From a virus, in IMG/VR virus record IMGVR_UViG_3300042375_000763, positions 1-64,000 of that record: DNA of 64,000 bases. One strand, given 5' to 3'. The position numbers and the translations under genes are program-made. The notes under the pieces are model-generated. The model was not told the origin of the DNA, made no database searches, and was given only the letters and a program-made list of their open reading frames with translations. This document shows positions 11,770 through 50,975 of the stretch, piece by piece (within the stretch, counting starts at the first letter, position 1; each line of letters starts with the position of its first letter).

Positions 11770-12983
11770 CCTTTGATATATTCAGGTGAGAAGTTTGCTT
11801 TGCTAAATTGCAATCTATCTACTAATTTCAGTGCATTTTTACCGAGATGATCAATAGCAACAAAACCTTCTTGACCTGTTACTTCATAGCCATCCTTGGT
11901 TTTAAGAAATGTTCTCATATTATTTACTCTATTGAGTTTATCCAATAGTATGTACTTAACTTCGTCTACAATATTATAGATACGGAAAACATCGACAACA
12001 TCAGACCCATGTTCCTTGAAGTATGAAAGTATCTCATCACGCTTTTTAAATGAAGATTCTTTACCAGCATCTGACTTCTTTTTGTCTGCGTCTTTCTGAT
12101 AATAATCTTCTATATATTTAATCATATCAGCGATAAATTTCTTGGGGTCACCGATTCTCTGGCCTTCTCTCACTTTGACATTAATGAAAGCATTAACACG
12201 GATTCTACGCTCTTCATTATCTGAAAGTCCATCCAATACTGGTCTTTTTATCTTTGCAAATATTTTTCCTGCATCTGAAAGAAGAGCAGTTACGTGCTTT
12301 GTTTCTTCAGCAGTCATTGTAGCACTACCAGAAACATCCTTAAATACAGCATCAACAGACCAGACAGTTTTTACTTTTTTGAGATTTGTTGCAATCTCCT
12401 GTCCAAAACTCGCTGACATTGATTCAAAAGAGTCTCCTCCGTATGTTGTGTGCCATACCACACCGATTTTGGATCCAAGTATTTGTTTAGCAAGATCGCT
12501 TGTTTTTGGTACCGCATAAACAATCGTGTTAGGATGAAAAGTAATATACGATTCTCCATCAATGTTAACTTCTTTAATATCTTCGCGCGCATAAAGAAAA
12601 TCACCCTGTATCACGCCCTTAATACCAAGTTTTGGCAACTCAGCAAGAGCTAATTTCAATTTTGTGTTTAAATCACCTGATGTATCTGCATCAACGTCTG
12701 CATTAGTTTTATAGACTTTTGGGTTCTTGTTAAAGATACCTTTCTTTGCCACAAAGAATTTACCATCAGTTGGATCAATACCTGCAAAAACTGCAGGGGC
12801 ACCATCCCACTTAGTAGAAATATTCATTGGGGTTTTAGTATGACCGGCAAGTGTATCTCTTAGAACTCTCAAATGATTAATTGCTTGACGAGTACCTTCA
12901 ACACCGCCATCAATGATTGCATCAGCAAGATGCACCATATGTGAATTTTTTTCTTCTTCTAGATACTGTTTGAATGATAGCAT
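11757..12983 (-). CDS. DUF6267-like protein with ligase-type nucleotidyltransferase motifs and a capsid-targeting-like N-terminus
   Basis: TKWDGAP (KxDG), IQGDFLY, QEGFV, LKLVDR; N-terminus MLSFKQYLEEE. Confidence 0.65.
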   Translation of the reverse strand: MLSFKQYLEEEKNSHMVHLADAIIDGGVEGTRQAINHLRVLRDTLAGHTKTPMNISTKWDGAPAVFAGIDPTDGKFFVAKKGIFNKNPKVYKTNADVDADTSGDLNTKLKLALAELPKLGIKGVIQGDFLYAREDIKEVNIDGESYITFHPNTIVYAVPKTSDLAKQILGSKIGVVWHTTYGGDSFESMSASFGQEIATNLKKVKTVWSVDAVFKDVSGSATMTAEETKHVTALLSDAGKIFAKIKRPVLDGLSDNEERRIRVNAFINVKVREGQRIGDPKKFIADMIKYIEDYYQKDADKKKSDAGKESSFKKRDEILSYFKEHGSDVVDVFRIYNIVDEVKYILLDKLNRVNNMRTFLKTKDGYEVTGQEGFVAIDHLGKNALKLVDRLQFSKANFSPEYIKGWQR

Positions 12984-21161: not shown

Positions 21162-21800
21162 TTAATTTTTAACTAAAAAACCGATCCTGGGAAGATCTAA
21201 AAACCCGGCGGCACCATCGTAGTTAATAATATAACTATAACCTAATTTTGTATATTTGTCAACTACTTCCTCATCGCCCTTCCAAACAGGTATCAGTTCA
21301 TTGTAGTCTGGATCAGGTGATGTTCTTAAATGTACTTCGATTATTTTATCATCAATATATTCTATATTAATCTTATCAAGATCTGCTAGTTCATGAAACA
21401 TTATTCCAATATTAGGGTAAAAATCTGTTCTAATCCACTTTGTAAATTTTGAAAGGTTTTCATCTTCCTTAATACCTTGCCAGCACGATATTGGCTCCCA
21501 TCCACCAGGATAGTCCTTCCATTGATATGTCACTGAATACTGATTACCATAAAACCATTCACACCAAAAATAACCAGGTGGTACTTTAGTGCAATCATCA
21601 GTGTCAATCCATATTTTCTTCGCTCCGACACCCATACCCAATAAATTTATCATGGGTCGAGTGATATAAAATCCAGAAGTTTTTGGTGCTATGCCCGCAG
21701 GCCCGCAATTATAACCAAGTTGTTCAGATAACCAAAGTTTATTGTACCAATGTCTTAAATGCGAATAAGACTGATAGGCATCAACATCAGTATCTACCAT
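21162..21800 (-). CDS. Conserved phage protein, possible ATP-grasp-like fold
   Basis: YNKLWLS..LGY.CGPAG, RPMINLLGMG, NIEYI..KIIEVHLR. Confidence 0.55.
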   Translation of the reverse strand: MVDTDVDAYQSYSHLRHWYNKLWLSEQLGYNCGPAGIAPKTSGFYITRPMINLLGMGVGAKKIWIDTDDCTKVPPGYFWCEWFYGNQYSVTYQWKDYPGGWEPISCWQGIKEDENLSKFTKWIRTDFYPNIGIMFHELADLDKINIEYIDDKIIEVHLRTSPDPDYNELIPVWKGDEEVVDKYTKLGYSYIINYDGAAGFLDLPRIGFLVKN

Positions 21801-25578: not shown

Positions 25579-26380
25579 CTTTTGATACTGAAGCAGTTCG
25601 TTCTTGGTCAGTAAAAGCAGTTGCCACATAAAGAGCTGCCACGCCGTCGTGGCCACTATATTCACCAGTCGCATAAGCTGATTTCATACGAGACGTCATA
25701 GCAGATGCAGAACGCATTGTGTTACCCATTGAAGCGGTATCATATTGCATAGTATTATTGGAATTGAAACCAAGTGCAGAACCTGCAGCAAATGCATTGA
25801 TATTTGCACCGAGGAACATAAAGCCCCAGTTTTTACCTTCTGCTTTTTCCACCATTTGTTTGACTGTAGTATTATTGAAAGTTCTGGAAGCATTTTCTGC
25901 ACCATCAGTCAAGATAGTGATAATGATAGAGTCACGATCTGCTTTCTTGTTTGCAGAAAGTTGACTATTGATCTGCATCATGACACCACCAATGGCATCA
26001 TAAAGGTTTGTGGTACCTTGTGGATCATATGTTTTTTCATTAAGATCTTGAACTTCATCTACAGTAACACGACTGAAAACACTGTTGACAGACGAACCGT
26101 CAAATTTATAAAGGGAAACAAAGGTTGGAATCCCCGTCTCCACTGCGTCTTTCTTTTGTGCTTGTAGGTACTCGTTATAGCCAGAGATCGTTGCAGCACG
26201 ACAGGACTGCATTGAGCCAGAATCGTCTAGAACAAAGATAATATGAGAGGTTTTTGTACCCGCGCGTTTCGGCTTGAACGCATCAGCAAGTGATACAGTT
26301 GGTTTTGAAACAGTAAGTGTTGTATGCGGGAGAATATTTACTTGTTGGTTTGGGAGTTTTGGAAAATTTACATATGTCAT
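25571..26380 (-). CDS. von Willebrand factor A domain protein
   Basis: MIDAS motif LDDSGSM, TNLYDAIG, ILTDGAENAS, FMFLGAN; start at MTYV because the upstream TTG lies inside the tmRNA. Confidence 0.88.
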   Translation of the reverse strand: MTYVNFPKLPNQQVNILPHTTLTVSKPTVSLADAFKPKRAGTKTSHIIFVLDDSGSMQSCRAATISGYNEYLQAQKKDAVETGIPTFVSLYKFDGSSVNSVFSRVTVDEVQDLNEKTYDPQGTTNLYDAIGGVMMQINSQLSANKKADRDSIIITILTDGAENASRTFNNTTVKQMVEKAEGKNWGFMFLGANINAFAAGSALGFNSNNTMQYDTASMGNTMRSASAMTSRMKSAYATGEYSGHDGVAALYVATAFTDQERTASVSKDE

Positions 26381-26409
26381 AATAGACCTTTCTATGTTGT
26401 GTGATGTGT

Positions 26410-26725
26410 GATGCAACTTTTCTGTTTCTAGGTAAGTTGCCAACCCACAGTACTTATGCTGCTAGAGCAAAAGCCTTAGGTGCGAAATTTTCATTTGCAT
26501 TTCTTATTTTATTGCGTTAACCGAGCTTTCGCCGGGTAGCTCCATCCTGCCTAGTGCGCCTGTCGATCCTATTTATCGCCCAGCAAAGATACCGATCGTC
26601 TTGTTTACATAAACTTATCTCGCCATATGATAGCAATGCTTCATACATCCAAGGGTTCCATAAACTGACCGGTATCTGTGGTGGACGATTCGGGTACCGC
26701 CCCCGAGTCCAGAACGTGTTCAGTG
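26410..26725 (-). ncRNA. ssrA: Two-piece (circularly permuted) tmRNA
   Basis: Acceptor piece ends ...AATCGTCCACCA at 26679. Coding piece starts GGGCGATAAATAGGATCGAC at 26581. G3-U70 pair. Tag reading frame ANENFAPKAFALAA* at 26498-26454. Outer ends are approximate. Confidence 0.93.
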
Positions 26726-26743
26726 AATATCATCACTACATAG

Positions 26744-26968
26744 TTATTTATTACATCTTTTTAAATATGCTTCTTCAAAATCATATTCATGTACACAATT
26801 TTCGTGATTACCCCAGATACGATCAAAGTAACCATTATATACACTCATGATTTCTTTTTCGCGCCAAGAGTCCGGGATAAGATGACCTTTCACAATCCAG
26901 AAGTATCTATTGGCTTCTTTTAATTCAACCTCTGTCATATCTTCTTTGTTTTTCTTCTTCTGAATCAT
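26744..26968 (-). CDS. Hypothetical protein
   Basis: ORF track; FWIVKGHLIP. Confidence 0.55.
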   Translation of the reverse strand: MIQKKKNKEDMTEVELKEANRYFWIVKGHLIPDSWREKEIMSVYNGYFDRIWGNHENCVHEYDFEEAYLKRCNK

Positions 26969-36590: not shown

Positions 36591-36666
36591 TGGTGACCCC
36601 AGTGGGACTCGAACCCACGACATTTGCTTTTAGAGAGCATGCTCTAACCATCTGAGCTACGGGATC
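36591..36666 (-). tRNA. Amber suppressor-type tRNA (anticodon CUA)
   Basis: UGCU-CUCUAAA-AGCA anticodon arm, canonical D and T arms, CCA. Confidence 0.75.
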
Positions 36667-36671
36667 ATTAA

Positions 36672-36778
36672 CAGTTTGTGTGTCTACTTTTTTGGACAGA
36701 AAATCGAAAACTGTTGTGATCTTGTTGCCGAAGCTTACGACCTATGCTATGATTTTAATTGATTGCTGTACACAAACT
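36672..36778 (-). ncRNA. Clamp-motif RNA copy 1
   Basis: AGTTTGTG-TACAGCAA...CACAAACTG. Confidence 0.55.
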
Positions 36779-38027: not shown

Positions 38028-38133
38028 TGGGGTTTCTGGTGGGATTCGAACCCACGTCCCGCAGAGCCAGTTCTTTTTCGGTGTATCTTACCATCATAGC
38101 TGGGGTGCCCTTCTACCGCTGAATTACAGAAAC
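38028..38133 (-). ncRNA. tRNA-like RNA with an expanded (~48 nt) anticodon arm
   Basis: Perfect acceptor GTTTCTG/CAGAAAC, D and T arms and CCA; no 7-nt anticodon loop. Confidence 0.7.
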
Positions 38134-38234: not shown

Positions 38235-38299
38235 CAGGATGGTTTTTGAGCGTTTACAAATTAAATGTTTGTTGCTTTCTTTTTTGCTGAACCCATCCT
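38235..38299 (-). ncRNA. Clamp-motif RNA copy 2
   Basis: AGGATGG-GTTCAGCAA...CCATCCTG. Confidence 0.6.
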
Positions 38300-38309
38300 T
38301 GGGTCTTTA

Positions 38310-38389
38310 CAGGATCAATTGTGGAATTGAACCACTTATTCAAATTTTGAAGATTTGTTTTTATCCAGATTGTTTACTGAACTGATCCT
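38310..38389 (-). ncRNA. Clamp-motif RNA copy 3 (anticodon-arm plus T-arm mimic)
   Basis: AGGATCAG-TTCAGTAA...CAAAT-CTTCAAA-ATTTG...GTGG-TTCAATT-CCAC..TTGATCCTG. Confidence 0.6.
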
Positions 38390-38461
38390 TTTATTTAATA
38401 TGAACCAATACCTCTTTTGACTTTGCCCACAATATTTTCAAAATGTCAACAATTCTTTTAC

Positions 38462-38928: not shown

Positions 38929-38988
38929 CAGGATCATTTGTTTTTCAAACCAAAATTGAAATTTTCGCTTGTTTGCGGAACTGATCCT
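38929..38988 (-). ncRNA. Clamp-motif RNA copy 4
   Basis: AGGATCA-GTTCCGCAA...TTCAA-TTTTGGT-TTGAA...TGATCCTG. Confidence 0.6.
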
Positions 38989-39992: not shown

Positions 39993-40106
39993 CAGGATCA
40001 TTTATTTGCCGGTTGCCTTTACCATTTGGCCACAAAGATCTTGTGTGATCTAAGGTAGGACTTGAACCTACAATCTACTGGTTGTTAAAATTGCTGTATT
40101 GATCCT
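39993..40106 (-). ncRNA. Clamp-motif RNA copy 5 with a circularly permuted tRNA module
   Basis: T-arm GTAGG-TTCAAGT-CCTAC precedes a loop-closed acceptor and the D-arm GCC-AAATGGTAAA-GGC. Confidence 0.7.
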
Positions 40107-40580: not shown

Positions 40581-40616
40581 TTATTAAGTTTACCATATAC
40601 TGATTCTGTGTGTTTG

Positions 40617-40922
40617 TCAACCGAAAAGTTGTTCGGTAATCACGTTAATTTCCTTCGAAGATTGCTTACGAGCTTTACCTTCAAGAGAAGCATCATAGTC
40701 TTTGTAAGCAACTTCAACCTTATAACCAAGTTCATCACCTGATTGTTCACCGATAAACATCATTTCATAAAGACATTTGACGGTGACTTTCAGACTTTCT
40801 TTAGAACCATCATGAGACATTTCCATGATATTGGCGACCGATCTACGACCGTCTTCATCAGACTCAATCCAAAGTACACGGATTGCAGTATCGGAAGCTT
40901 TTTCGAAGATGTATTGGTTCAT
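40617..40922 (-). CDS. Hypothetical early protein
   Basis: Early promoter and SD. Confidence 0.6.
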   Translation of the reverse strand: MNQYIFEKASDTAIRVLWIESDEDGRRSVANIMEMSHDGSKESLKVTVKCLYEMMFIGEQSGDELGYKVEVAYKDYDASLEGKARKQSSKEINVITEQLFG

Positions 40923-40987
40923 GTTCGGTTCCTTTCCTTATATAATCAATATATACTGATTCTGTAAGGATGTCAACCATTATTTTT

Positions 40988-41208
40988 CTGGATCAACTTT
41001 TTGCGTAACCTGCTCTACTACCTGAGCTACTCTCCCATCAAAGATACTGCACGCTAGTTTATACCCAATTGTCTCGCCATATAAGCCTATTAATATCTTA
41101 TACAAGAAAGGTTGTCATAAACTAACAGTATCCGTGGTGGGAGAGGAAGGATTTGAACCTCCGACACGGCCCATTTCAAGGATGCTAATTTGTTGCTGTA
41201 ATGATCCA
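40988..41208 (-). ncRNA. Clamp-motif RNA copy 6: permuted tRNA-Phe-like RNA with a 98-nt intervening hairpin
   Basis: TTGAAAT-GGGCC-GTGTC-T-arm-CTCTCCC-ACCA, insert at 41037-41134, GGGAGAG-D-arm. Confidence 0.75.
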
Positions 41209-41316
41209 TTTTGTATTTGTCAAGCCAGAGCGTCACCAGTGTCGTGGATAGAATGTCTATAGTCACCTATATAAACTCAATCCATGATACCTGGCTATCA
41301 TCTGGCTGTCAGGAAT

Positions 41317-41389
41317 TGGAGCGGGTAGCCGGAATCGAACCGGTCTCCTGCAGATTGGAAATCTGATTGGTTGCCATAACCTTACCCGC
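41317..41389 (-). tRNA. tRNA-Gly(UCC)
   Basis: Cloverleaf, short D-loop. Confidence 0.82.
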
Positions 41390-41395
41390 ATTGAT

Positions 41396-41470
41396 TGGTC
41401 AGTGTGACAAGGATTGAACTTGCGACTTCTAGTTTCCAAAACTAGCACTCTACCACTGAGCTACACACTG
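41396..41470 (-). tRNA. tRNA-Pro(UGG), A37 variant
   Basis: CTAGT-TTTGGAA-ACTAG, C1-G72, A73. Confidence 0.85.
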
Positions 41471-41579
41471 ATATTCGTACTCCGAGGGTCTGAATCTCGG
41501 GAGCCGAGGAAGAGAGGGATAACCTTCAAAGCCAATACAGACAATAGGCTCGGGTCAGTGCGCTTTTCTTCCTAATAAT

Positions 41580-41663
41580 TGGTGCCCAGAGAGGGATTTG
41601 AACCCTCACGCAATTAAGCGCCACCTACTCAAGATGGTGTGTCTACCGTTTCACCACCTGGGC
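41580..41663 (-). tRNA. tRNA-Leu(GAG), U37
   Basis: Loop UU-GAG-UA, variable arm. Confidence 0.85.
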
Positions 41664-41665
41664 AT

Positions 41666-41911
41666 TTAAATTATGCGCGGCGATGGCCATAGACCACGCA
41701 TACAAATAATGTAGTGCAGTCCGTCCATCGGTGCTTGTAGTTTGGGAAGAGCAAAATTGTGGCCGACGGTGCCACCATAAGTATTCCCAACTAAAGCATA
41801 AATTGCTTGTTCTTCATTTACATTTAAAAGTCTACCATCACATGGTAGATAACCTTCTGGTGCATAATTAAATGCTACAAGTTTAACAGTACCTAATAGT
41901 TCTTCGTCCAT
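41666..41911 (-). CDS. Phage tail-collar domain protein
   Basis: LGTVKLVAFNYAPEGYLPCDGRLL...YALVGNTYGG...FALPKL...YIIC..G.WP. Confidence 0.85.
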   Translation of the reverse strand: MDEELLGTVKLVAFNYAPEGYLPCDGRLLNVNEEQAIYALVGNTYGGTVGHNFALPKLQAPMDGLHYIICMRGLWPSPRII

Positions 41912-41937
41912 ATTTTTTCCTTCATATCAAAGTATAA

Positions 41938-42012
41938 TGGTAGTCCGTAAAGGGATCAAACCTTTGACCTTCTCCGTGTAAAGGAGTTGCTCTATCGCTG
42001 AGCTAACGGACC
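41938..42012 (-). tRNA. tRNA-Val(UAC)
   Basis: Cloverleaf. Confidence 0.85.
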
Positions 42013-42019
42013 GTTATTT

Positions 42020-42103
42020 TGGTGCGCCTGGAGGGACTTGAACCCCCACGCCCGAAGGCACTGCATTCTAAGTGCAGCGTGGCTGCCATTACACCACAAG
42101 CGC
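42020..42103 (-). tRNA. tRNA-Leu(UAG)
   Basis: Cloverleaf, A37. Confidence 0.9.
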
Positions 42104-42111
42104 ATAAACTT

Positions 42112-42187
42112 TGGCTGCCCCTCGTGGACTCGAACCACGGTTTCCTGATTCAGAGTCAGGCGTCCTACCGGCATAGACGAAGGGGCA
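42112..42187 (-). tRNA. tRNA-Gln(CUG)
   Basis: Cloverleaf. Confidence 0.9.
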
Positions 42188-42236
42188 AAAATTTCAGCCG
42201 GAAATTCTTTAGTCAGGCGCCGGATCGCCTCGTTAA

Positions 42237-42319
42237 TGGTGTCAATCAAGGAATTGAACCTTGTCATAGCGTGACATGACGCCTGTGATATCTGTGCTGT
42301 TAGCAAACCTGCATTGACA
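42237..42319 (-). ncRNA. tRNA-like RNA (acceptor, T-arm and CCA; aberrant D/anticodon region)
   Basis: TGTCAAT/ATTGACA-CCA and CAAGG-TTCAATT-CCTTG. Confidence 0.55.
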
Positions 42320-42326
42320 TGTTTAT

Positions 42327-42402
42327 TGGTGGACCATGACGGTAACGATCCGTCTCTTCCGCATTGCAAGTGCGGTGTGCTACCCTCTATCACTAATGGC
42401 CC
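42327..42402 (-). tRNA. tRNA-Ala(UGC)
   Basis: G3-U70, loop CU-UGC-AA. Confidence 0.88.
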
Positions 42403-42760
42403 ATAAATTCTGCTGGTTCTCACGTTGTCGAACCGAATGCTGTCTAGAATTTCGACCCGTGCTGGATTTACAGCATCTAAGGTATCTAGATCAAACTCAA
42501 ATTGGACAAGGAGCGGGAAGTTGAACCCACCAGCACGAACCGATATTACCAGTATCATTATCATGCATGCCTGACGCCACCTTTCTTGCAAACTCTGGTA
42601 AAGTCTGCGGTACTTGGATCATCACCCCGTTGGTGCCTACGTTTGCCTCGACCAAATGGGAAGCGAGCATAGGACTTAGTTGATATAGACTGGGCTGGTT
42701 TGCCGACTTGACCTATCTCTAGGGTCACACTCATAAGGGGTGACTATATCCAGTCTATTT

Positions 42761-42836
42761 TGGTGGATCTTATCAGTCTCGAACTGATTACCACGGACTT
42801 CCGCCCAGTGCTTTACCCATCTTAAGCTAAAGACCC
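42761..42836 (-). ncRNA. tRNA mimic with G3-U70/A73 and a GGAA-tetraloop-capped anticodon arm
   Basis: GGGTCTT/AAGATCC-A-CCA; TGGGC-GGAA-GTCCG. Confidence 0.65.
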
Positions 42837-42842
42837 AATGTT

Positions 42843-42919
42843 TGGTTGCGGGAGAAGGATTTGAACCTTCGACCTCTTGGTTATGAGCCAAGCGAGCTAC
42901 CGGACTGCTCTATCCCGCA
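42843..42919 (-). tRNA. tRNA-Met(CAU), initiator-like
   Basis: GAGCAGTCCGGTAGCTC D-arm, CU-CAU-AA, UUCAAAU. Confidence 0.88.
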
Positions 42920-43064
42920 AAAATCTATTTGTTACCTAGTCCTTTCGATTGACAGCCGCTAAACCAATCAATCTGGGTTCTGTCCGATTTTGACTCAAGT
43001 TGAAAGTTGCCATGGCAACCGCTCTCTATTGTCCCAGTAACACGTCCACCCAAAGTCCATTGAT

Positions 43065-43138
43065 TGGCGCACCTGACGGGACTCGAACCCGCCTTCACGG
43101 TTAGACAGACCGCGGCCTTCCCTGACGGCAACAGGTGC
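43065..43138 (-). tRNA. tRNA-Asp(GUC), U37
   Basis: Loop CU-GUC-UA, G73. Confidence 0.8.
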
Positions 43139-43147
43139 ATTGTATTT

Positions 43148-43222
43148 TGGCTCCTCAGACAGGATTCGAACCTATATTGAACAGATTAACAATCTGGAGC
43201 CTTACCTATCGGCCACTGAGGA
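43148..43222 (-). tRNA. tRNA-Asn(GUU)
   Basis: Cloverleaf, G73. Confidence 0.82.
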
Positions 43223-43721
43223 ACAATTCTTTTATATTTTCTTTATAAACCCATTCACCTTTTGCAATGTTAATTTTATAATGAGTTAGATAATATCTTT
43301 CTTCTTCTCTTGCATTTTCAACAACACGGTAATGTTCAACTTTATATCTTTTCATCGGATCATATGTTTGATAAGATCTTAAACGATTTACGAGATTTTT
43401 GGTCATACCAATTTTAATAAAACCATCAAAAGCAGGATTACTAATTAAATAAACAATTCCACTTTTTGTTTTTGTCTTTGATTTATTAGTTTTTACTTCT
43501 TCTATTTCTTCTCTTTGTAAATTTAATTTCAACAAAGATAAACCAGCTAATTTTAAAGCATAATTTTTATTAGAATTTGTTTTTGTATCACCATTGCCAG
43601 AATATTTTGAATATAAAGATACATAGTCTTCTTTCATACTATGGGTAATATCAAATATACCATTCGGTGGCAATGCATCTGTTTCAATCATCTCATAAAA
43701 AATAAAACTATCAAACTTCAC
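43206..43721 (-). CDS. GIY-YIG (T5orf172-like) endonuclease within the tRNA array
   Basis: GIVYLISNPAF...KIGMTKN...RL..YQT.DP...GEW; stop codon lies inside tRNA-Asn. Confidence 0.8.
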   Translation of the reverse strand: MKFDSFIFYEMIETDALPPNGIFDITHSMKEDYVSLYSKYSGNGDTKTNSNKNYALKLAGLSLLKLNLQREEIEEVKTNKSKTKTKSGIVYLISNPAFDGFIKIGMTKNLVNRLRSYQTYDPMKRYKVEHYRVVENAREEERYYLTHYKINIAKGEWVYKENIKELFLSGR

Positions 43722-43738
43722 AATATACTTTCTATATT

Positions 43739-43813
43739 TGGCAGGGGCCGCGAGAGTCGAACTCGCTTCTCAAGGTTTTGGAGGCCCGCGGATTACCGGT
43801 TTCCCTGACCCCT
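43739..43813 (-). tRNA. tRNA-Trp(CCA), weak anticodon stem
   Basis: Loop CU-CCA-AA, G73. Confidence 0.72.
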
Positions 43814-43824
43814 GCATTTAATTT

Positions 43825-43900
43825 TGGCTCCCAGTGACGGGCTCGAACCGCCGACCCAAGGATTAACAATCCTTTGCTCTACCAACTGAGCTAACTGGGA
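43825..43900 (-). tRNA. tRNA-Asn(GUU)
   Basis: Cloverleaf. Confidence 0.93.
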
Positions 43901-43906
43901 ACATTA

Positions 43907-44031
43907 TCTCTGTTTTCAGCTAAGGGTCACCAAGGAATTGAACCTTGCGTTCACTTTGTCGGAAGCTGCCGAAATCGCCGACACGATTAGGGCACTCACG
44001 GACCATCATGACCCTCATGTGAAAACAGAGA
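43907..44031 (-). ncRNA. TCTGTTTT-stem RNA family, copy A
   Basis: TCTGTTTTCA-CA...GC-TGAAAACAGA enclosing a T-arm. Confidence 0.6.
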
Positions 44032-44552
44032 GTATTCAATCTGGTCTTATCGGTTTGTCCGAGCCAGATAATCTCTGTTTTGTTTTTGTAAATCACGGTT
44101 TACAGTTTCATCAACTAACGTGATCAGATTTCTAAATTGTCAAAGAGCAAGATTAACATTCATCAACAAGACACTCATCACCCAGATTAGCATAGTCAAA
44201 GTCTGGGATATATTCCACTTCGATCCAACCTTTTTGGCGAAGCGAGAGCGCCTCATACCAATAGCAAGTAACTTTTTCCTTAGTAATTACATTTTGCATT
44301 ACGTAGGTTTCCATATTATTTCCTTTGGTTGGTTATAAGTTTAGTATAAACTGATTCTTACAGATTGTCAACCAATTTTCCGCGGATATTTTCAAGACCT
44401 TTATCTTTGATAACGGTCAACAGTTCCATGCAAGCATTGGATTTTTCAATCTCACCTGCAAGGAGAAAATCAGCAGCATTACGAGCAAGACGTTCAATCA
44501 GTTTGGTCATTGTCATGTTTCGGTTTCCTTTGTGTTACCTTATATATTTAAA

Positions 44553-44789
44553 CTATACCGATTCCATACGATTGTCAACCACTTTGTTGCGTCTTTGCTT
44601 CTTTTGTTTTTCAAGAAGTTTCTTGGCACGGATACGAGCCAAAGCATCTTCTTCGTCTTTTTGGAGATGCGCTGTTTTTGCAAACCTTGATACTTGACGG
44701 CGAAGTCGAGCAGCAATAGATCGTTTCCAGCGGGTTGCACGTGAAGGTTTTTCGAGTTTGATGTCGACATCTTCTTCTACAGTATCCAT
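44553..44789 (-). CDS. Basic hypothetical protein
   Basis: SD GGAG; Arg/Lys-rich. Confidence 0.55.
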   Translation of the reverse strand: MDTVEEDVDIKLEKPSRATRWKRSIAARLRRQVSRFAKTAHLQKDEEDALARIRAKKLLEKQKKQRRNKVVDNRMESV

Positions 44790-44815
44790 GGTATATTCTC
44801 CATTTTAAATTATGA

Positions 44816-44906
44816 TGGCAGATGGTGGAGGTATCGAACCCCTGACGGGTATCAGCCGTCACGCTAGTTTTCAAGACTAGTCGAAGCACCTGCTTCCGCA
44901 CCATCC
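44816..44906 (-). tRNA. tRNA-Ser(UGA), extended D-stem
   Basis: CTAGT-CTTGAAA-ACTAG, variable arm, G73. Confidence 0.82.
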
Positions 44907-44912
44907 ATAATT

Positions 44913-44997
44913 TGGTACCCCCTGCCGGACTCGAACCGGCACGCCATAACAGCTAGAGATTTTAAGTCTCTTGTGTCTACCATTCCACCAAGGAGGC
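44913..44997 (-). tRNA. tRNA-Leu(UAA)
   Basis: Cloverleaf. Confidence 0.92.
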
Positions 44998-45007
44998 ATT
45001 ATTTAAT

Positions 45008-45135
45008 CAGGATCAACTTTTTGCTACGCGTTTTACTACTAAACTAACCCCTGTCAGTGTATGGTCAGGGGTGTAGGAATTGCACCTACGACTCGATCTC
45101 CGAATGATATGCATATTTGTTGCTGAAATGATCCT
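45008..45135 (-). ncRNA. Clamp-motif RNA copy 7: permuted tRNA-Pro-like RNA
   Basis: TTCGGAG...GTAGG-TGCAATT-CCTAC-ACCCCTG-ACCA-linker-CAGGGGT-D-arm. Confidence 0.72.
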
Positions 45136-50078: not shown

Positions 50079-50975
50079 TTACCTACCTTCATACTTTTCA
50101 AGGACGGACTTTAGTTCAGCAACAAGCCGTTCTACCGGAACATCGCGTTTGACAGCTTGATCCAGAGAACCATAGTGCTGTTCTAGACAAGTCATAAGAA
50201 GATCCTTGATAGCATCTTCGTCCGGCACATGCCGAAGGGTTGACTTGGTATAAAGTTCTTCAAGATGTTTCTCCTTAGCATCAAACCAGCTCCGGAGTTT
50301 CTCTTCACTCCAGTCACCACGACGAACTGCTTTCAGGACTTCAGCATTTCGTTCAATGTCAAGATCATGCTCCATCAAGATCTGTTCACCCTCAAGAGCA
50401 AGACGAATAACATGATAAGCAAACTTAAGATCCATGCCGTGTTTTTCGATGTCAGCTTGGCGCTTAGGATTGGAACTATTTGACTTCGTGCCGATCTTGT
50501 GCAATTGAGCATAAGCATATCCGCGGAACTTGTGATACGAATTCTTTGTCAAGAATAGTTTGCGGTTATCACGGACAATCTGAGCAACAGTAGAGCAATA
50601 CAAAACACACCGTTGTGGAGTAAACAGAATGTCAACCATATTCGGATTATTTTCCATTGCAAGTTGAAAAAACTTCACGATTGAATAGATACTGAAGTCG
50701 TATTCTTGACGAGATTCATTATCCATGATGTGATGTTCCTGCCATAATTCAAATCGTTTGTGTTGTAAACCAAAACCAGGAATCTCACCACGAAGGTGCG
50801 GGAAGATGTCATCTTTTGGTGGCATACAAAAACCAACAACATCCATATCAGAAGTGTCTGAACTTACAGCATAGCTGACAGAACCGGTGATCACTTCATA
50901 GTGAATGTTTTGAGGTAGCCACCTTGGCGGACTGATAAGTCCCTTCTGTTTCATTAGTTGTACACGTGATGCCAT
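50079..50975 (-). CDS. Pol-beta superfamily nucleotidyltransferase (NrdC.11/YcgL/RlaP-like)
   Basis: GSVSYA...SDMD, NNPN, K.AYH.IRL. Confidence 0.85.
   Translation of the reverse strand: MASRVQLMKQKGLISPPRWLPQNIHYEVITGSVSYAVSSDTSDMDVVGFCMPPKDDIFPHLRGEIPGFGLQHKRFELWQEHHIMDNESRQEYDFSIYSIVKFFQLAMENNPNMVDILFTPQRCVLYCSTVAQIVRDNRKLFLTKNSYHKFRGYAYAQLHKIGTKSNSSNPKRQADIEKHGMDLKFAYHVIRLALEGEQILMEHDLDIERNAEVLKAVRRGDWSEEKLRSWFDAKEKHLEELYTKSTLRHVPDEDAIKDLLMTCLEQHYGSLDQAVKRDVPVERLVAELKSVLEKYEGR

What the first reader, a model, noticed from the sequence alone, without database searches (positions are those of the whole stretch)
40988..45135. Circularly permuted tRNA-Phe(GAA)-like and tRNA-Pro(CGG)-like genes that retain CCA and anticodon
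Seen: in 40988-41208 the 3' half (TT-GAA-AT, GGGCC, GTGTC, T-arm, CTCTCCC-A-CCA) precedes the 5' half (GGGAGAG, D-arm, GGTT). In 45008-45135 TT-CGG-AG precedes a T-arm and a C1-G72/A73 Pro-type acceptor with CCA. No ordinary Phe or Pro(CGG) tRNA is present in the window. Known: permuted tRNA genes that mature through ligation occur in algae and archaea; I know of none in phages. Inference: either two-piece chargeable tRNA mimics, or precursors ligated at the anticodon arm by RNA-repair enzymes.
Basis: partly seen in the sequence, partly recalled or inferred. Interest (0 to 1): 0.8.

Follow-up and report, generated by a model that had tools for sequence, protein, structure and literature searches.

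The report
Phage Y-like RNAs carrying rotated tRNAs
The two "back-to-front" tRNA genes are real, but they are most likely not working tRNAs: they belong to a family of small phage RNAs in which one conserved "handle" carries a tRNA look-alike, and the handle always travels with a ring-shaped Ro60-like protein, much like the known Ro60/Y-RNA particles.

Summary
Observation confirmed with corrections. On the minus strand, 41207-40990 (U1) and 45134-45010 (U2) each hold a complete tRNA in rotated order. The break lies in the anticodon stem between positions 28 and 29, not in the loop. Rejoined there, ARAGORN calls perfect cloverleafs: Phe(GAA) and Arg(UCG), not Pro(CGG).

Both units sit inside a conserved "handle": GGAUCAnUUCAGCAAC at the 5' end and AAAAAGnUGAUCC at the 3' end. 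This handle recurs at least 7 times in the window, with payloads ranging from a bare hairpin to a whole tRNA. It also occurs, permuted or not, in related lake phages and in KVP40-like Vibrio and Aeromonas phages. It matches no Rfam family.

Every handle-bearing genome tested encodes a DUF2828/DUF7788 protein whose model matches Ro60 structures. The gene usually lies next to handle units and carries one in its own 5' UTR. Five phage records without that protein gave no full-length handle match.

U1's 98-nt CCA-to-G1 spacer is homologous to the excised spacer of the phage's own two-piece tmRNA, so U1 is probably cut into two pieces with a free CCA, as shown for M. smegmatis YrlA.

Best reading (about 0.7): Y-RNA-like partner RNAs of a phage Ro60-like protein. 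Maturation into working tRNAs by ligation is unlikely.

The parts
40990..41207 (-). U1: handle-clamped, circularly permuted tRNA-Phe(GAA)-like RNA. Layout: 5' handle 41207-41183; tRNA 29-76 with ACCA 41182-41135; spacer 41134-41037; tRNA 1-28 41036-41009; 3' handle 41008-40990.
   Evidence: Sequence reading. CM R1 113 bits. ARAGORN calls Phe(gaa) on the rotated sequence. Present in independent assemblies.
41037..41134 (-). 98-nt hairpin spacer between ACCA and G1 of U1, homologous to the tmRNA intervening segment. Probably excised.
   Evidence: 70 of 98 nt identical to window 26582-26678, about 10 SD above shuffles. Same long bulged hairpin with a conserved GAUAC.../...GUAUCUUUG base.
45010..45134 (-). 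U2: handle-clamped permuted tRNA-like RNA with C1:G72, A73, CCA and anticodon loop AUUCGGA (UCG). Layout: 5' handle 45134-45109; tRNA 29-76 45108-45062; 8-nt spacer 45061-45054; tRNA 1-28 45053-45027; 3' handle 45026-45010.
   Evidence: R1 123 bits. ARAGORN calls Arg(tcg) on the rotated sequence. The counterpart in G004 at 38301-38427 has loop UUUGGGA.
39995..40105 (-). U3: third handle-clamped permuted tRNA-like unit. It has a T arm, an acceptor stem closed by a hexaloop and a D arm, but no CCA and no anticodon hairpin.
   Evidence: Found by regex scan and reading. R1 72.9 bits, E 1.8e-12.
38931..38987 (-). Handle-only unit: P1 GGAUCA/UGAUCC, conserved internal loop, short hairpin payload.
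   Evidence: R1 full-length hit at 21.6 bits plus reading. Near-identical units occur in L003 and G004.
38312..38388 (-). Handle unit whose payload ends in a T-arm-like hairpin (GUGG UUCAAUU CCAC).
38237..38298 (-). Handle-only unit with a covarying P1 (GGAUGG/CCAUCC), 8 nt upstream of tRNA-Leu.
   Evidence: Counterpart at L003:4106-4166.
36675..36776 (-). Probable divergent handle unit: P1 AGUUUGUG/CACAAACU, UACAGCAAUCAA motif, A-rich 3' strand. No clear tRNA arms.
   Evidence: Regex scan and reading only. Not recovered by R1, so lower confidence.
26363..26794 (-). Phage-encoded circularly permuted (two-piece) tmRNA gene. Its intervening segment 26678-26582 is the homologue of U1's spacer.
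   Evidence: ARAGORN permuted tmRNA with tag ANENFAPKAFALAA. Rfam alpha_tmRNA 104.7 bits and tmRNA_permuted 95.3 bits. Sequence.

Best explanation
U1 and U2 are genes for small non-coding RNAs of the Y-RNA type. They are not tRNA genes.

How each RNA is built:
- The two ends of each transcript pair into a 6-bp helix, P1 (GGAUCA/UGAUCC).
- P1 closes a conserved, A-rich asymmetric internal loop: 5' strand UUCAGCAAC.AA, 3' strand AAAAAG.
- This 'handle' is the common module of a family with at least 7 copies in the window.
- The rest of the transcript folds into a complete L-shaped tRNA body whose chain has been rotated. The handle emerges from the anticodon stem between positions 28 and 29, and the acceptor stem is closed by a loop that begins with ACCA.

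What is inferred:
- The handle is probably the docking site for the phage's Ro60-like ring protein (DUF2828+DUF7788). That gene lies at C1:72816-74276 of the same record, outside the window. It probably also binds a handle copy in its own 5' UTR, which would give autoregulation.
- In U1 the closing loop is a 98-nt hairpin homologous to the spacer of the phage's two-piece tmRNA. The same host enzymes probably excise it (RNase P at G1, 3' trimming to CCA). The product would be a two-piece RNA with a free CCA end that stays together through the acceptor stem and P1, as M. smegmatis YrlA does on Rsr.
- By analogy with Ro60/Y-RNA particles, the tRNA-shaped module would let the particle engage tRNA-recognising factors. 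Candidates are processing or repair enzymes, synthetases, or host anticodon nucleases, for which it would act as tether, gate or decoy.

Status of each step:
- Shown: the structure, the family, the co-occurrence and adjacency with the Ro60-fold protein, and the spacer homology.
- Inferred: binding, cleavage and biological role.
For: 1. Handle and rotated cloverleaf are conserved with covariation. Permuted set: 93.5% of cells paired, 17 of 29 pairs compensatory. Non-permuted KVP40-type set: 95% paired, P1 compensatory in 5 of 6 pairs. P1 is paired in 28 of 28 units with 8 different sequences.

2. The same handle encloses bare hairpins, single tRNA arms or whole tRNAs, and it occurs both rotated and unrotated. 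Chain connectivity and decoding therefore do not matter; the fold does.

3. DUF2828 (PF11443) is present in all 10 handle-bearing records large enough to judge: the own record, the complete 283-kb relative G004, three other metagenomic contigs, four Vibrio phages including KVP40, and Aeromonas phiAS5. It is absent from 5 records with no full-length handle hit: T4, pf16, Phabio, DSS3_MAL1 and W08.

4. Handle units lie 25-370 nt from that gene in L004, L006, L007, L010, L011 and G004. A handle-only unit sits between promoter and RBS of the gene in G000, G004, L007 and L010.

5. The protein's AlphaFold model has mean pLDDT 74.8. Its 13 best PDB matches are all Ro60/Rsr/TROVE structures over the full length, with E from 8e-9 to 4e-6.

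6. The topology 5' stem strand - V - T arm - acceptor stem-loop - D arm - 3' stem strand is that of YrlA. M. smegmatis YrlA, which has a 7-bp acceptor stem, is cut by RNase P and gains CCA in vivo while both halves remain Rsr-bound.

7. U1's spacer is homologous to the tmRNA spacer.

8. Ordinary tRNA-Phe, Pro(UGG) and Arg(UCG) genes exist in the same genome.
Against: - No binding, processing or expression data exist for any member.
- The handle lacks the YrlA/Y-RNA Ro60 motif GNCGAAN0-1G, and no Rfam Y-RNA model matches.
- The protein is Ro60-like only by predicted fold. Pfam TROVE and sequence searches of the PDB do not link it to Ro60.
- In this genome the gene is about 28-35 kb from U1 and U2.
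- The co-occurrence sample is small and phylogenetically clustered (mostly Straboviridae).
- Six CCA-bearing units give flawless cloverleafs with 7-nt loops, U33 and anticodons that mostly fit their bodies. That is more tRNA-like than a mere scaffold requires.
Confidence: 0.7

Rival explanations
1. Permuted pre-tRNAs. The handle is an intron-like element that is cut out. The nick left in the anticodon stem (28|29) is sealed by a phage RNA ligase (Rnl2-type nick sealing, or Pnkp/Rnl1), and the acceptor-side spacer is removed by RNase P and 3' trimming. The products would be ordinary Phe and Arg/Pro tRNAs, as in Cyanidioschyzon or archaeal permuted tRNA genes.
For: - Exact joining at 28|29 gives perfect cloverleafs with CCA in U1, U2 and five relatives.
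- The same element occurs at the same stem position in unrotated genes. That is the pattern seen for algal permuted genes.
- The complete relative G004 and Vibrio phage 6E35.1a encode Rnl1- and Rnl2-type ligases.
Against: - Handle-only and single-arm units have nothing to splice.
- KVP40-type members have 8-9-nt loops, no CCA and a covarying 15-bp acceptor helix. Types B and C have no anticodon loop at all.
- G004's U1-like unit keeps the Phe-type body but has a different anticodon hairpin, CCGAUAA.
- Ordinary genes for the same tRNAs are present.
- No BHB geometry was seen, and no splicing endonuclease or RtcB was found.
- The ligases are general to T4-like phages.
Confidence: 0.1
2. Free-standing two-piece tRNAs. 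After excision of the spacer the two pieces, held by the acceptor stem and P1, are aminoacylated. They then act in translation or in a non-ribosomal aminoacyl transfer, independently of the Ro60-like protein.
For: - Encoded ACCA or GCCA follows a 7-bp acceptor stem in 7 units.
- U1, L008 and G004_21k carry a tmRNA-type spacer, which implies that the end is exposed.
- GAA is kept in U1 and L008 despite other changes.
Against: - A roughly 45-nt helix-loop domain projecting from the anticodon stem is unlikely to fit ribosomal sites (inference).
- Sister units close the acceptor stem with a tetraloop and have no CCA (L004, L006, L010, U3).
- The anticodon differs between related units.
- This reading does not explain the tight linkage of the handle to the Ro60-like gene.
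Confidence: 0.07
3. The handle is mainly a cis-acting element: an operator for autoregulation, or a processing or stability 'punctuation' signal in the polycistronic tRNA transcripts. The tRNA-like payloads would be incidental neighbours or by-products of recombination.
For: - Handle-only copies sit in 5' UTRs, including that of the Ro60-like gene.
- Units are spaced among tRNA genes like tRNAs themselves, 7-12 nt from their neighbours.
Against: - Compensatory changes maintain acceptor, T and anticodon stems across the rotated junctions.
- Elbow covariation: D-loop GG goes with T-loop UUC, and no GG goes with UGC (reading).
- The complete tRNA bodies are conserved between distant contigs, which indicates selection on the payload itself.
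Confidence: 0.08
4. Decaying tRNA pseudogenes, disrupted and shuffled by a small selfish palindromic DNA element.
For: - KVP40's copies are annotated 'tRNA-Pseudo'.
- G004 72855-73151 looks like a tandem-duplication intermediate with an orphan 3' half.
Against: - Covariation and near-perfect pairing hold in 12 permuted and 8 unpermuted members.
- The family is conserved across Vibrio, Aeromonas and lake phages.
- No variation was seen in four independent metagenomes.
- No target-site duplications are visible at the unit borders.
Confidence: 0.03

Closest known systems
YrlA-type bacterial and mycobacteriophage Y RNAs bound by Ro60/Rsr (Chen et al. 2014, PMC4201824; structure preprint 10.1101/312249)
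   Same: - Modular RNA: a stem made by the 5' and 3' ends carries the protein site.
- The rest mimics a tRNA in the same rotated order (V, T arm, acceptor stem-loop, D arm).
- Encoded with a Ro60-fold ring protein, often in several copies.
- The M. smegmatis form, with a 7-bp acceptor stem, is cut by RNase P, gains CCA, and stays bound as two pieces.
   Different: - The handle sequence is unrelated to GNCGAAN0-1G, and Rfam gives no match.
- The partner is a DUF2828/DUF7788 protein, not a Pfam TROVE protein.
- The payload here is a full tRNA that includes an anticodon hairpin and an encoded ACCA.
- The handle branches from inside the anticodon stem (28/29) instead of replacing the arm.
- Units are scattered through a large tRNA array.
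- U1 carries a tmRNA-type excisable spacer.
Two-piece (circularly permuted) tmRNA of alphaproteobacteria, including the copy in this window at 26363-26794
   Same: - Gene order: T arm, acceptor 3' strand, CCA, intervening hairpin, acceptor 5' strand.
- The ends of the two pieces pair.
- U1's intervening hairpin is a sequence homologue of the tmRNA's (70 of 98 nt).
   Different: - No tag reading frame, and no G3:U70 alanine identity (U1 has G3:C70).
- U1 has a full D arm and an anticodon hairpin.
- ARAGORN and Rfam tmRNA models do not call it (weak 13-bit partial hit only).
Circularly permuted tRNA genes of Cyanidioschyzon merolae and some archaea, and split tRNAs of Nanoarchaeum
   Same: - The 3' half is encoded before the 5' half, with flanks that pair.
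- Permuted and unpermuted genes carry the insert at the same tRNA position.
   Different: - Those mature through a bulge-helix-bulge motif, a splicing endonuclease and a ligase into the only copy of an essential tRNA.
- Here there is no BHB, no endonuclease was found, ordinary copies exist, and many family members cannot become tRNAs.
T4 stable RNAs species 1 and 2 (rnaC, rnaD) in the T4 tRNA cluster
   Same: - Small stable RNAs of unknown function, co-located with phage tRNA genes in a T4-like phage.
- rnaC has a T arm.
   Different: - No handle motif was recognisable by reading.
- T4 has no DUF2828 gene and no R1 hit.

Membership tests
YrlA / Y RNA (partner of Ro60) | 5' and 3' ends pair into a stem that carries the protein-binding site | tested here: met
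   P1 is paired in 28 of 28 units with 8 sequence variants. It is compensatory in 5 of 6 pairs in the KVP40-type set.
YrlA / Y RNA (partner of Ro60) | tRNA-like domain in the order V, T arm, acceptor stem-loop, D arm | tested here: met
   Structure counts. ARAGORN cloverleafs after rotation.
YrlA / Y RNA (partner of Ro60) | Ro60-binding sequence GNCGAAN0-1G (GGUCCGA in animals) near the 5' end, or a match to an Rfam Y-RNA model | tested here: not met
   The motif is absent from the handle consensus GGAUCanUuCAGCAAnaaa. cmscan at E up to 10 and up to 5 gave no Y-RNA family, and gathering-threshold scans gave only tRNA and tmRNA.
YrlA / Y RNA (partner of Ro60) | Encoded with a Ro60 (TROVE) protein | tested here: inconclusive
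   Pfam TROVE is absent from the own record and from complete G004. However, a DUF2828/DUF7788 protein with a Ro60 fold is present in all handle-bearing genomes and is adjacent to units in 6 contigs.
YrlA / Y RNA (partner of Ro60) | Physical binding to the ring protein | not testable with these tools
   Needs RIP/CLIP or EMSA.
Permuted tRNA genes matured by splicing (C. merolae / archaea) | 3' half upstream of 5' half, with an intervening sequence between CCA-side and +1 | tested here: met
Permuted tRNA genes matured by splicing (C. merolae / archaea) | Bulge-helix-bulge motif at the leader/trailer junction, and a splicing endonuclease | tested here: not met
   Both junction ends abut on one strand of a continuous 5-bp helix (reading). 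PF01974 is absent from G000, complete G004 and KVP40, and RtcB is absent.
Permuted tRNA genes matured by splicing (C. merolae / archaea) | The gene supplies a needed tRNA (no redundant ordinary copy; anticodon conserved) | tested here: not met
   Ordinary Phe(gaa), Pro(tgg) x2 and Arg(tcg) genes exist in the same record. The anticodon hairpin differs in the related units G004_21k and G004_38k.
Two-piece tmRNA | Permuted tRNA-like domain with CCA, intervening segment, then 5' acceptor strand | tested here: met
   Spacer homology of 70 of 98 nt to the window's tmRNA.
Two-piece tmRNA | Tag reading frame with resume codon; G3:U70 | tested here: not met
   ARAGORN calls no tmRNA at U1 or U2. U1 has G3:C70. 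Rfam tmRNA_permuted gives only 13 bits, E 1.4.
Canonical tRNA (RF00005) | Contiguous cloverleaf scoring above the Rfam or ARAGORN threshold | tested here: not met
   No call at 40990-41207 or 45010-45134. A cloverleaf appears only after in-silico rotation.
Ro60 / TROVE proteins (for the partner gene) | HEAT-repeat ring plus vWA domain fold | tested here: met
   Foldseek: the 13 best PDB hits are Ro60/Rsr/TROVE, aligned over about 520-570 columns, prob 1.00. The model is of moderate confidence (pLDDT 74.8, pTM 0.58).
Ro60 / TROVE proteins (for the partner gene) | Sequence match to Pfam TROVE (PF05731) | tested here: not met
   Pfam gives DUF7788 and DUF2828 only. phmmer and profile searches of the PDB find no Ro60.

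The most novel reading that the evidence does not exclude
U1-type units are cut at the tmRNA-type spacer into two pieces. These are then aminoacylated while held on the Ro60-like ring. The phage would thus keep a set of protein-bound, charged or chargeable tRNA surrogates (Phe, Pro, Met, Arg types). These could serve as decoys for host anticodon nucleases, or as spare parts or templates for the phage's RNA-ligase repair pathway. That would be a Ro60-type particle working directly on the tRNA pool during infection.
Probability: 0.12. Interest if true: 0.85.

Novelty: new variant of a known kind. Interest (0 to 1): 0.62.

Why it matters
Ro60/Y-RNA particles are known from animals, a few bacteria and mycobacteriophages. 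What the tRNA-like module of bacterial Y RNAs does is still open.

This finding adds several things:
- A second, sequence-unrelated Ro60-fold protein family (DUF2828/DUF7788, with thousands of homologues) appears to have its own handle RNA.
- That handle is present in arrays inside the tRNA clusters of T4-like phages, including cultivable KVP40 and phiAS5. It carries anything from a hairpin to a complete, CCA-bearing tRNA.
- The question of what tRNA mimicry by Y RNAs is for becomes testable in a tractable phage-host pair.
- It explains the long-annotated 'pseudo-tRNAs' of KVP40.
- It links Y-RNA maturation to the processing of two-piece tmRNA.
- Annotators should not count these units as tRNA genes or pseudogenes.

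Tried and rejected
- Classical Ro60 and RNA-repair genes. Pfam TROVE, RtcB, Rnl1 and Rnl2 were not found in the own 80-kb record, which is about 40% complete. TROVE and RtcB are also absent from complete G004. Rnl1 and Rnl2 are present in G004 and Vibrio phage 6E35.1a but are general to T4-like phages.
- RlaP nucleotidyltransferase as a specific partner. Rejected, because T4 has it too.
- Rfam at permissive thresholds gave only noise.
- Pattern scans of IMG/VR with AGCACACGTAGCANAAA and CAGCAACAAAT-N78-105-GCAAAAAG returned mostly chance coding matches. BLAST of U1 and of the unrotated G004 unit against cultured phages gave only generic tRNA-arm hits.
- A brute-force ARAGORN scan over all junction offsets was too permissive to be informative. 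It was replaced by the exact 28|29 join.
- BHB, k-turn and known small-ribozyme motifs were looked for by eye in the handle. None was recognised.
- Sequencing runs. 24 lake-water DNA runs hold the stretch, and no RNA holder was listed. Nothing can therefore be said on expression, ends or junctions.
- Literature searches for permuted tRNAs in phages, KVP40 pseudo-tRNAs and DUF2828 found no description of this handle or of DUF2828 as a Ro60 relative.
- T4 rnaC and rnaD were read for the handle motif. No convincing similarity was seen.
- My automatic cut of the L008 spacer was wrong (an internal GCCA was picked) and is not used.

Full report
**1. What is in the sequence**

The window is part of an 80-kb IMG/VR record of a T4-like phage from lake water. 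It encodes gp32, a gp41-type helicase and the topoisomerase II subunits, and the runs that hold it are lake-water metagenomes. Twenty-seven tRNA genes and a circularly permuted, alpha-type tmRNA gene lie on the minus strand.

Neither ARAGORN nor Rfam calls anything at the finding's coordinates. Reading the minus strand shows two units.

- U1 (41207->40990) runs: 25-nt 5' flank, tRNA positions 29-76 ending in ACCA, a 98-nt spacer, tRNA positions 1-28, 19-nt 3' flank.
- U2 (45134->45010) has the same plan with an 8-nt spacer.

The break is not in the anticodon loop. The anticodon stem is composite. Pairs 27:43 and 28:42 use the downstream half, and pairs 29:41 to 31:39 use the three bases just 5' of the loop in the upstream half.

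When the two parts are joined at 28|29 in a script, ARAGORN returns flawless cloverleafs:
- U1: tRNA-Phe(gaa), 76 nt.
- U2: tRNA-Arg(tcg), 74 nt.
- Relatives elsewhere: Pro(tgg) twice, Phe(gaa) and Met(cat).

By structure, however, U2's anticodon is UCG rather than CGG.

**2. The flanks are the key**

The flanks of U1 and U2 are identical: GGATCATTNCAGCAACAAAT at the 5' end and GCAAAAAGTTGATCC at the 3' end. The 5' flank recurs in nine other IMG/VR contigs. In seven of them (L004, L006-L011) it encloses a rotated tRNA-like body. In three of those (L004, L006, L010) the acceptor stem is simply closed by a tetraloop with no CCA. In the other two contigs (L003, L005) the flanks enclose only a short hairpin.

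A BLAST hit led to KVP40-like Vibrio phages. There the same element is a closed stem-loop inserted into an unrotated tRNA-like RNA at exactly the same place (28/29). Those RNAs have 7-9-nt hypervariable 'anticodon' loops and no CCA. Their acceptor helix is extended to 15 bp by leader-trailer pairing.

On eight such sequences my structure keeps 95% of cells paired. Twenty of 38 pairs are compensatory, including 5 of 6 pairs of the distal helix P1 and 10 of 15 pairs in the long acceptor helix. On twelve rotated units the figures are 93.5% and 17 of 29.

A covariance model built from the rotated units (R1), a regex scan and reading found further members.

- A third rotated unit lies in the window (U3, 39995-40105; 72.9 bits).
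- Three short units lie at 38237-38298, 38312-38388 and 38931-38987.
- A probable divergent unit lies at 36675-36776.
- At least eight units are in the 283-kb complete relative G004.

Over 28 units the consensus is 5'-GGAUCanUuCAGCAAnaaa ... aaaaAgnuGAUCC-3'. P1 is paired in 28 of 28, with eight different P1 sequences.

The payload between the two handle strands can be a hairpin, a T arm, a D arm plus anticodon arm (L007 and L010), or a whole tRNA. G004 also has an unrotated, CCA-ending Pro(UGG)-like copy next to an orphan 3' half (72855-73151). This looks like the tandem-duplication intermediate by which rotation arises.

No Rfam family matches the handle.

**3. Not ordinary tRNAs in waiting**

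- The same record has an ordinary tRNA-Phe(GAA) just outside the window (67850-67925). Ordinary Pro(UGG) x2 and Arg(UCG) lie inside it.
- G004's counterpart of U1 has the same acceptor stem, D arm, ACCA and spacer type. Its anticodon hairpin is different (GCU CCGAUAA AGC).
- G004's counterpart of U2 has UUUGGGA where U2 has AUUCGGA.
- Many family members have no CCA, no anticodon loop or no tRNA at all.
- Both junction ends abut on one strand of a continuous helix, so there is no bulge-helix-bulge.
- No splicing endonuclease or RtcB was found in the own record, in complete G004 or in KVP40.

**4. The partner**

My first idea was a YrlA-type Y RNA, because the topology is the same (PMC4201824). 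Against it, TROVE was absent and the Ro60 motif GNCGAAN0-1G is missing.

Earlier notes of this scan reported 'handle plus tRNA cargo' arrays next to a DUF2828 protein in another T4-like phage. They made me test that family here.

- PF11443 is present in the own record (C1:72816-74276, outside the window), in G004, in three other metagenomic contigs, in four Vibrio phages and in Aeromonas phiAS5. It is absent from T4, pf16, Phabio, DSS3_MAL1 and a further record.
- Full-length R1 hits occur only in the DUF2828-positive genomes. phiAS5's hits contain the handle on reading.
- Handle units lie 25-370 nt downstream of the gene in L004, L006, L007, L010 and L011, and upstream of it in G004.
- A handle-only unit sits between promoter and RBS of the gene in G000 (74292-74347), G004, L007 and L010. 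KVP40's leader contains UACAGCAAU.
- The protein is DUF2828+DUF7788 by Pfam. Its AlphaFold model (28-sequence alignment, pLDDT 74.8) has Ro60/Rsr/TROVE structures as its 13 best Foldseek hits over the full length, including Thermus phage phiLo Ro60.
- Sequence searches alone do not see the relationship.

**5. The CCA and the spacer**

U1's 98-nt spacer aligns with the 97-nt intervening segment of the phage's own two-piece tmRNA gene (26678-26582). Seventy positions are identical, about 10 SD above shuffled controls, and both fold into the same long bulged hairpin on a GAUAC.../...GUAUCUUUG base. L008 and G004_21k carry the same spacer type.

By established knowledge of two-piece tmRNA, the tmRNA spacer is removed to give a CCA 3' end and a mature 5' end. 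U1 is therefore probably cut in the same way.

A direct precedent exists. M. smegmatis YrlA, the one YrlA with a 7-bp acceptor stem, is cleaved by RNase P and gains CCA in vivo, and both halves remain on Rsr. Whether the CCA end is charged is unknown.

**6. Verdict**

U1 and U2 are Y-RNA-like RNAs built from a family-specific handle plus a rotated, complete tRNA. The handle is probably the docking site, and the autoregulatory operator, of a phage Ro60-like protein. This part is inference from co-occurrence, adjacency and fold.

The arrangement is reproducible in independent metagenome assemblies. The 'tRNA mimic, possibly two-piece' reading is partly right. The 'ligated into a tRNA' reading is unlikely.

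Relative to the literature I could search, the handle, its link to DUF2828/DUF7788 and the tmRNA-type spacer are undescribed. The system is a new variant of the Ro60/Y-RNA kind rather than a new kind.

Noticed in passing
window 26363-26794 (-): Phage-encoded circularly permuted (two-piece, alpha-type) tmRNA gene with tag ANENFAPKAFALAA. Its 5' and 3' ends can pair in a long helix.
   Followed up: partly
window 38031-38133 (-): A 103-nt match to the tRNA model (41 bits). A roughly 30-nt insertion follows the anticodon-stem 5' strand. It has no handle motif and ARAGORN does not call it.
   Followed up: no
window 43905-44090 (-); also L004 about 2650-2860 and L010 about 12290-12500: A structured region bracketed by AAACAGAG repeats. 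It contains an acceptor-like stem (AGGGUCA/UGACCCU) and a T arm around a long insert. Similar AAACAGAG-flanked elements follow the handle units in L004 and L010. Possibly another tRNA-like RNA family.
   Followed up: no
window 42230-42310 (-): An odd tRNA-like sequence with a 6-bp acceptor stem (GUCAAU/AUUGAC), a T arm (CAAGG UUCAAUU CCUUG) and A-CCA. Its D and anticodon region is aberrant. Neither ARAGORN nor Rfam calls it.
   Followed up: no
window 36591-36666 (-): A tRNA with anticodon CUA (amber-suppressor type; ARAGORN labels it 'Pyl'). G004 has one too, at 21238-21313.
   Followed up: no
window 43206-43721 (-): An ORF with a T5orf172/MUG113 domain inside the tRNA array. It is probably a homing-endonuclease-like gene.
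   Followed up: no
window 40595-40950: One lake metagenome (run X16) has a contig that skips these 356 nt, which hold the 101-aa ORF 40617-40922 just downstream of U1. This is a strain variant lacking that small gene.
   Followed up: no
window 40976-40948, 44371-44343, 39881-39853, 39572-39544 (-); G000 68359, 74400: Recurrent strong promoter with an extended conserved spacer: TTGACA ... CAGAATCAGTATA(T/C)T. One begins 14 nt after U1's 3' end.
   Followed up: partly
L014 (KVP40 NC_005083) 1739-1851 and 1862-1985; L013 2580-2699: KVP40's annotated tRNA-Pseudo-5 and tRNA-Pseudo-4 are tRNA bodies whose anticodon loop is replaced by a 46-53-nt handle-like insert. One has a Phe-type body with ACCA. 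They score 50-57 bits with the tRNA model.
   Followed up: partly
window 50079-50975 (-): RlaP-family nucleotidyltransferase (RNA-repair-associated Pol-beta family). It is also present in G004, KVP40-like phages and T4, so it is not specific to the handle system.
   Followed up: yes
units U2, L008, L009, G004_38k versus U1, L004, L006, L007, L010: Elbow covariation. Units with T loop UGCAAAU/UGCAAUU (G at position 55) lack the D-loop GG. Units with UUCGAAU/UUCAAAU keep GG. This suggests two alternative but internally consistent D/T-loop interactions.
   Followed up: no
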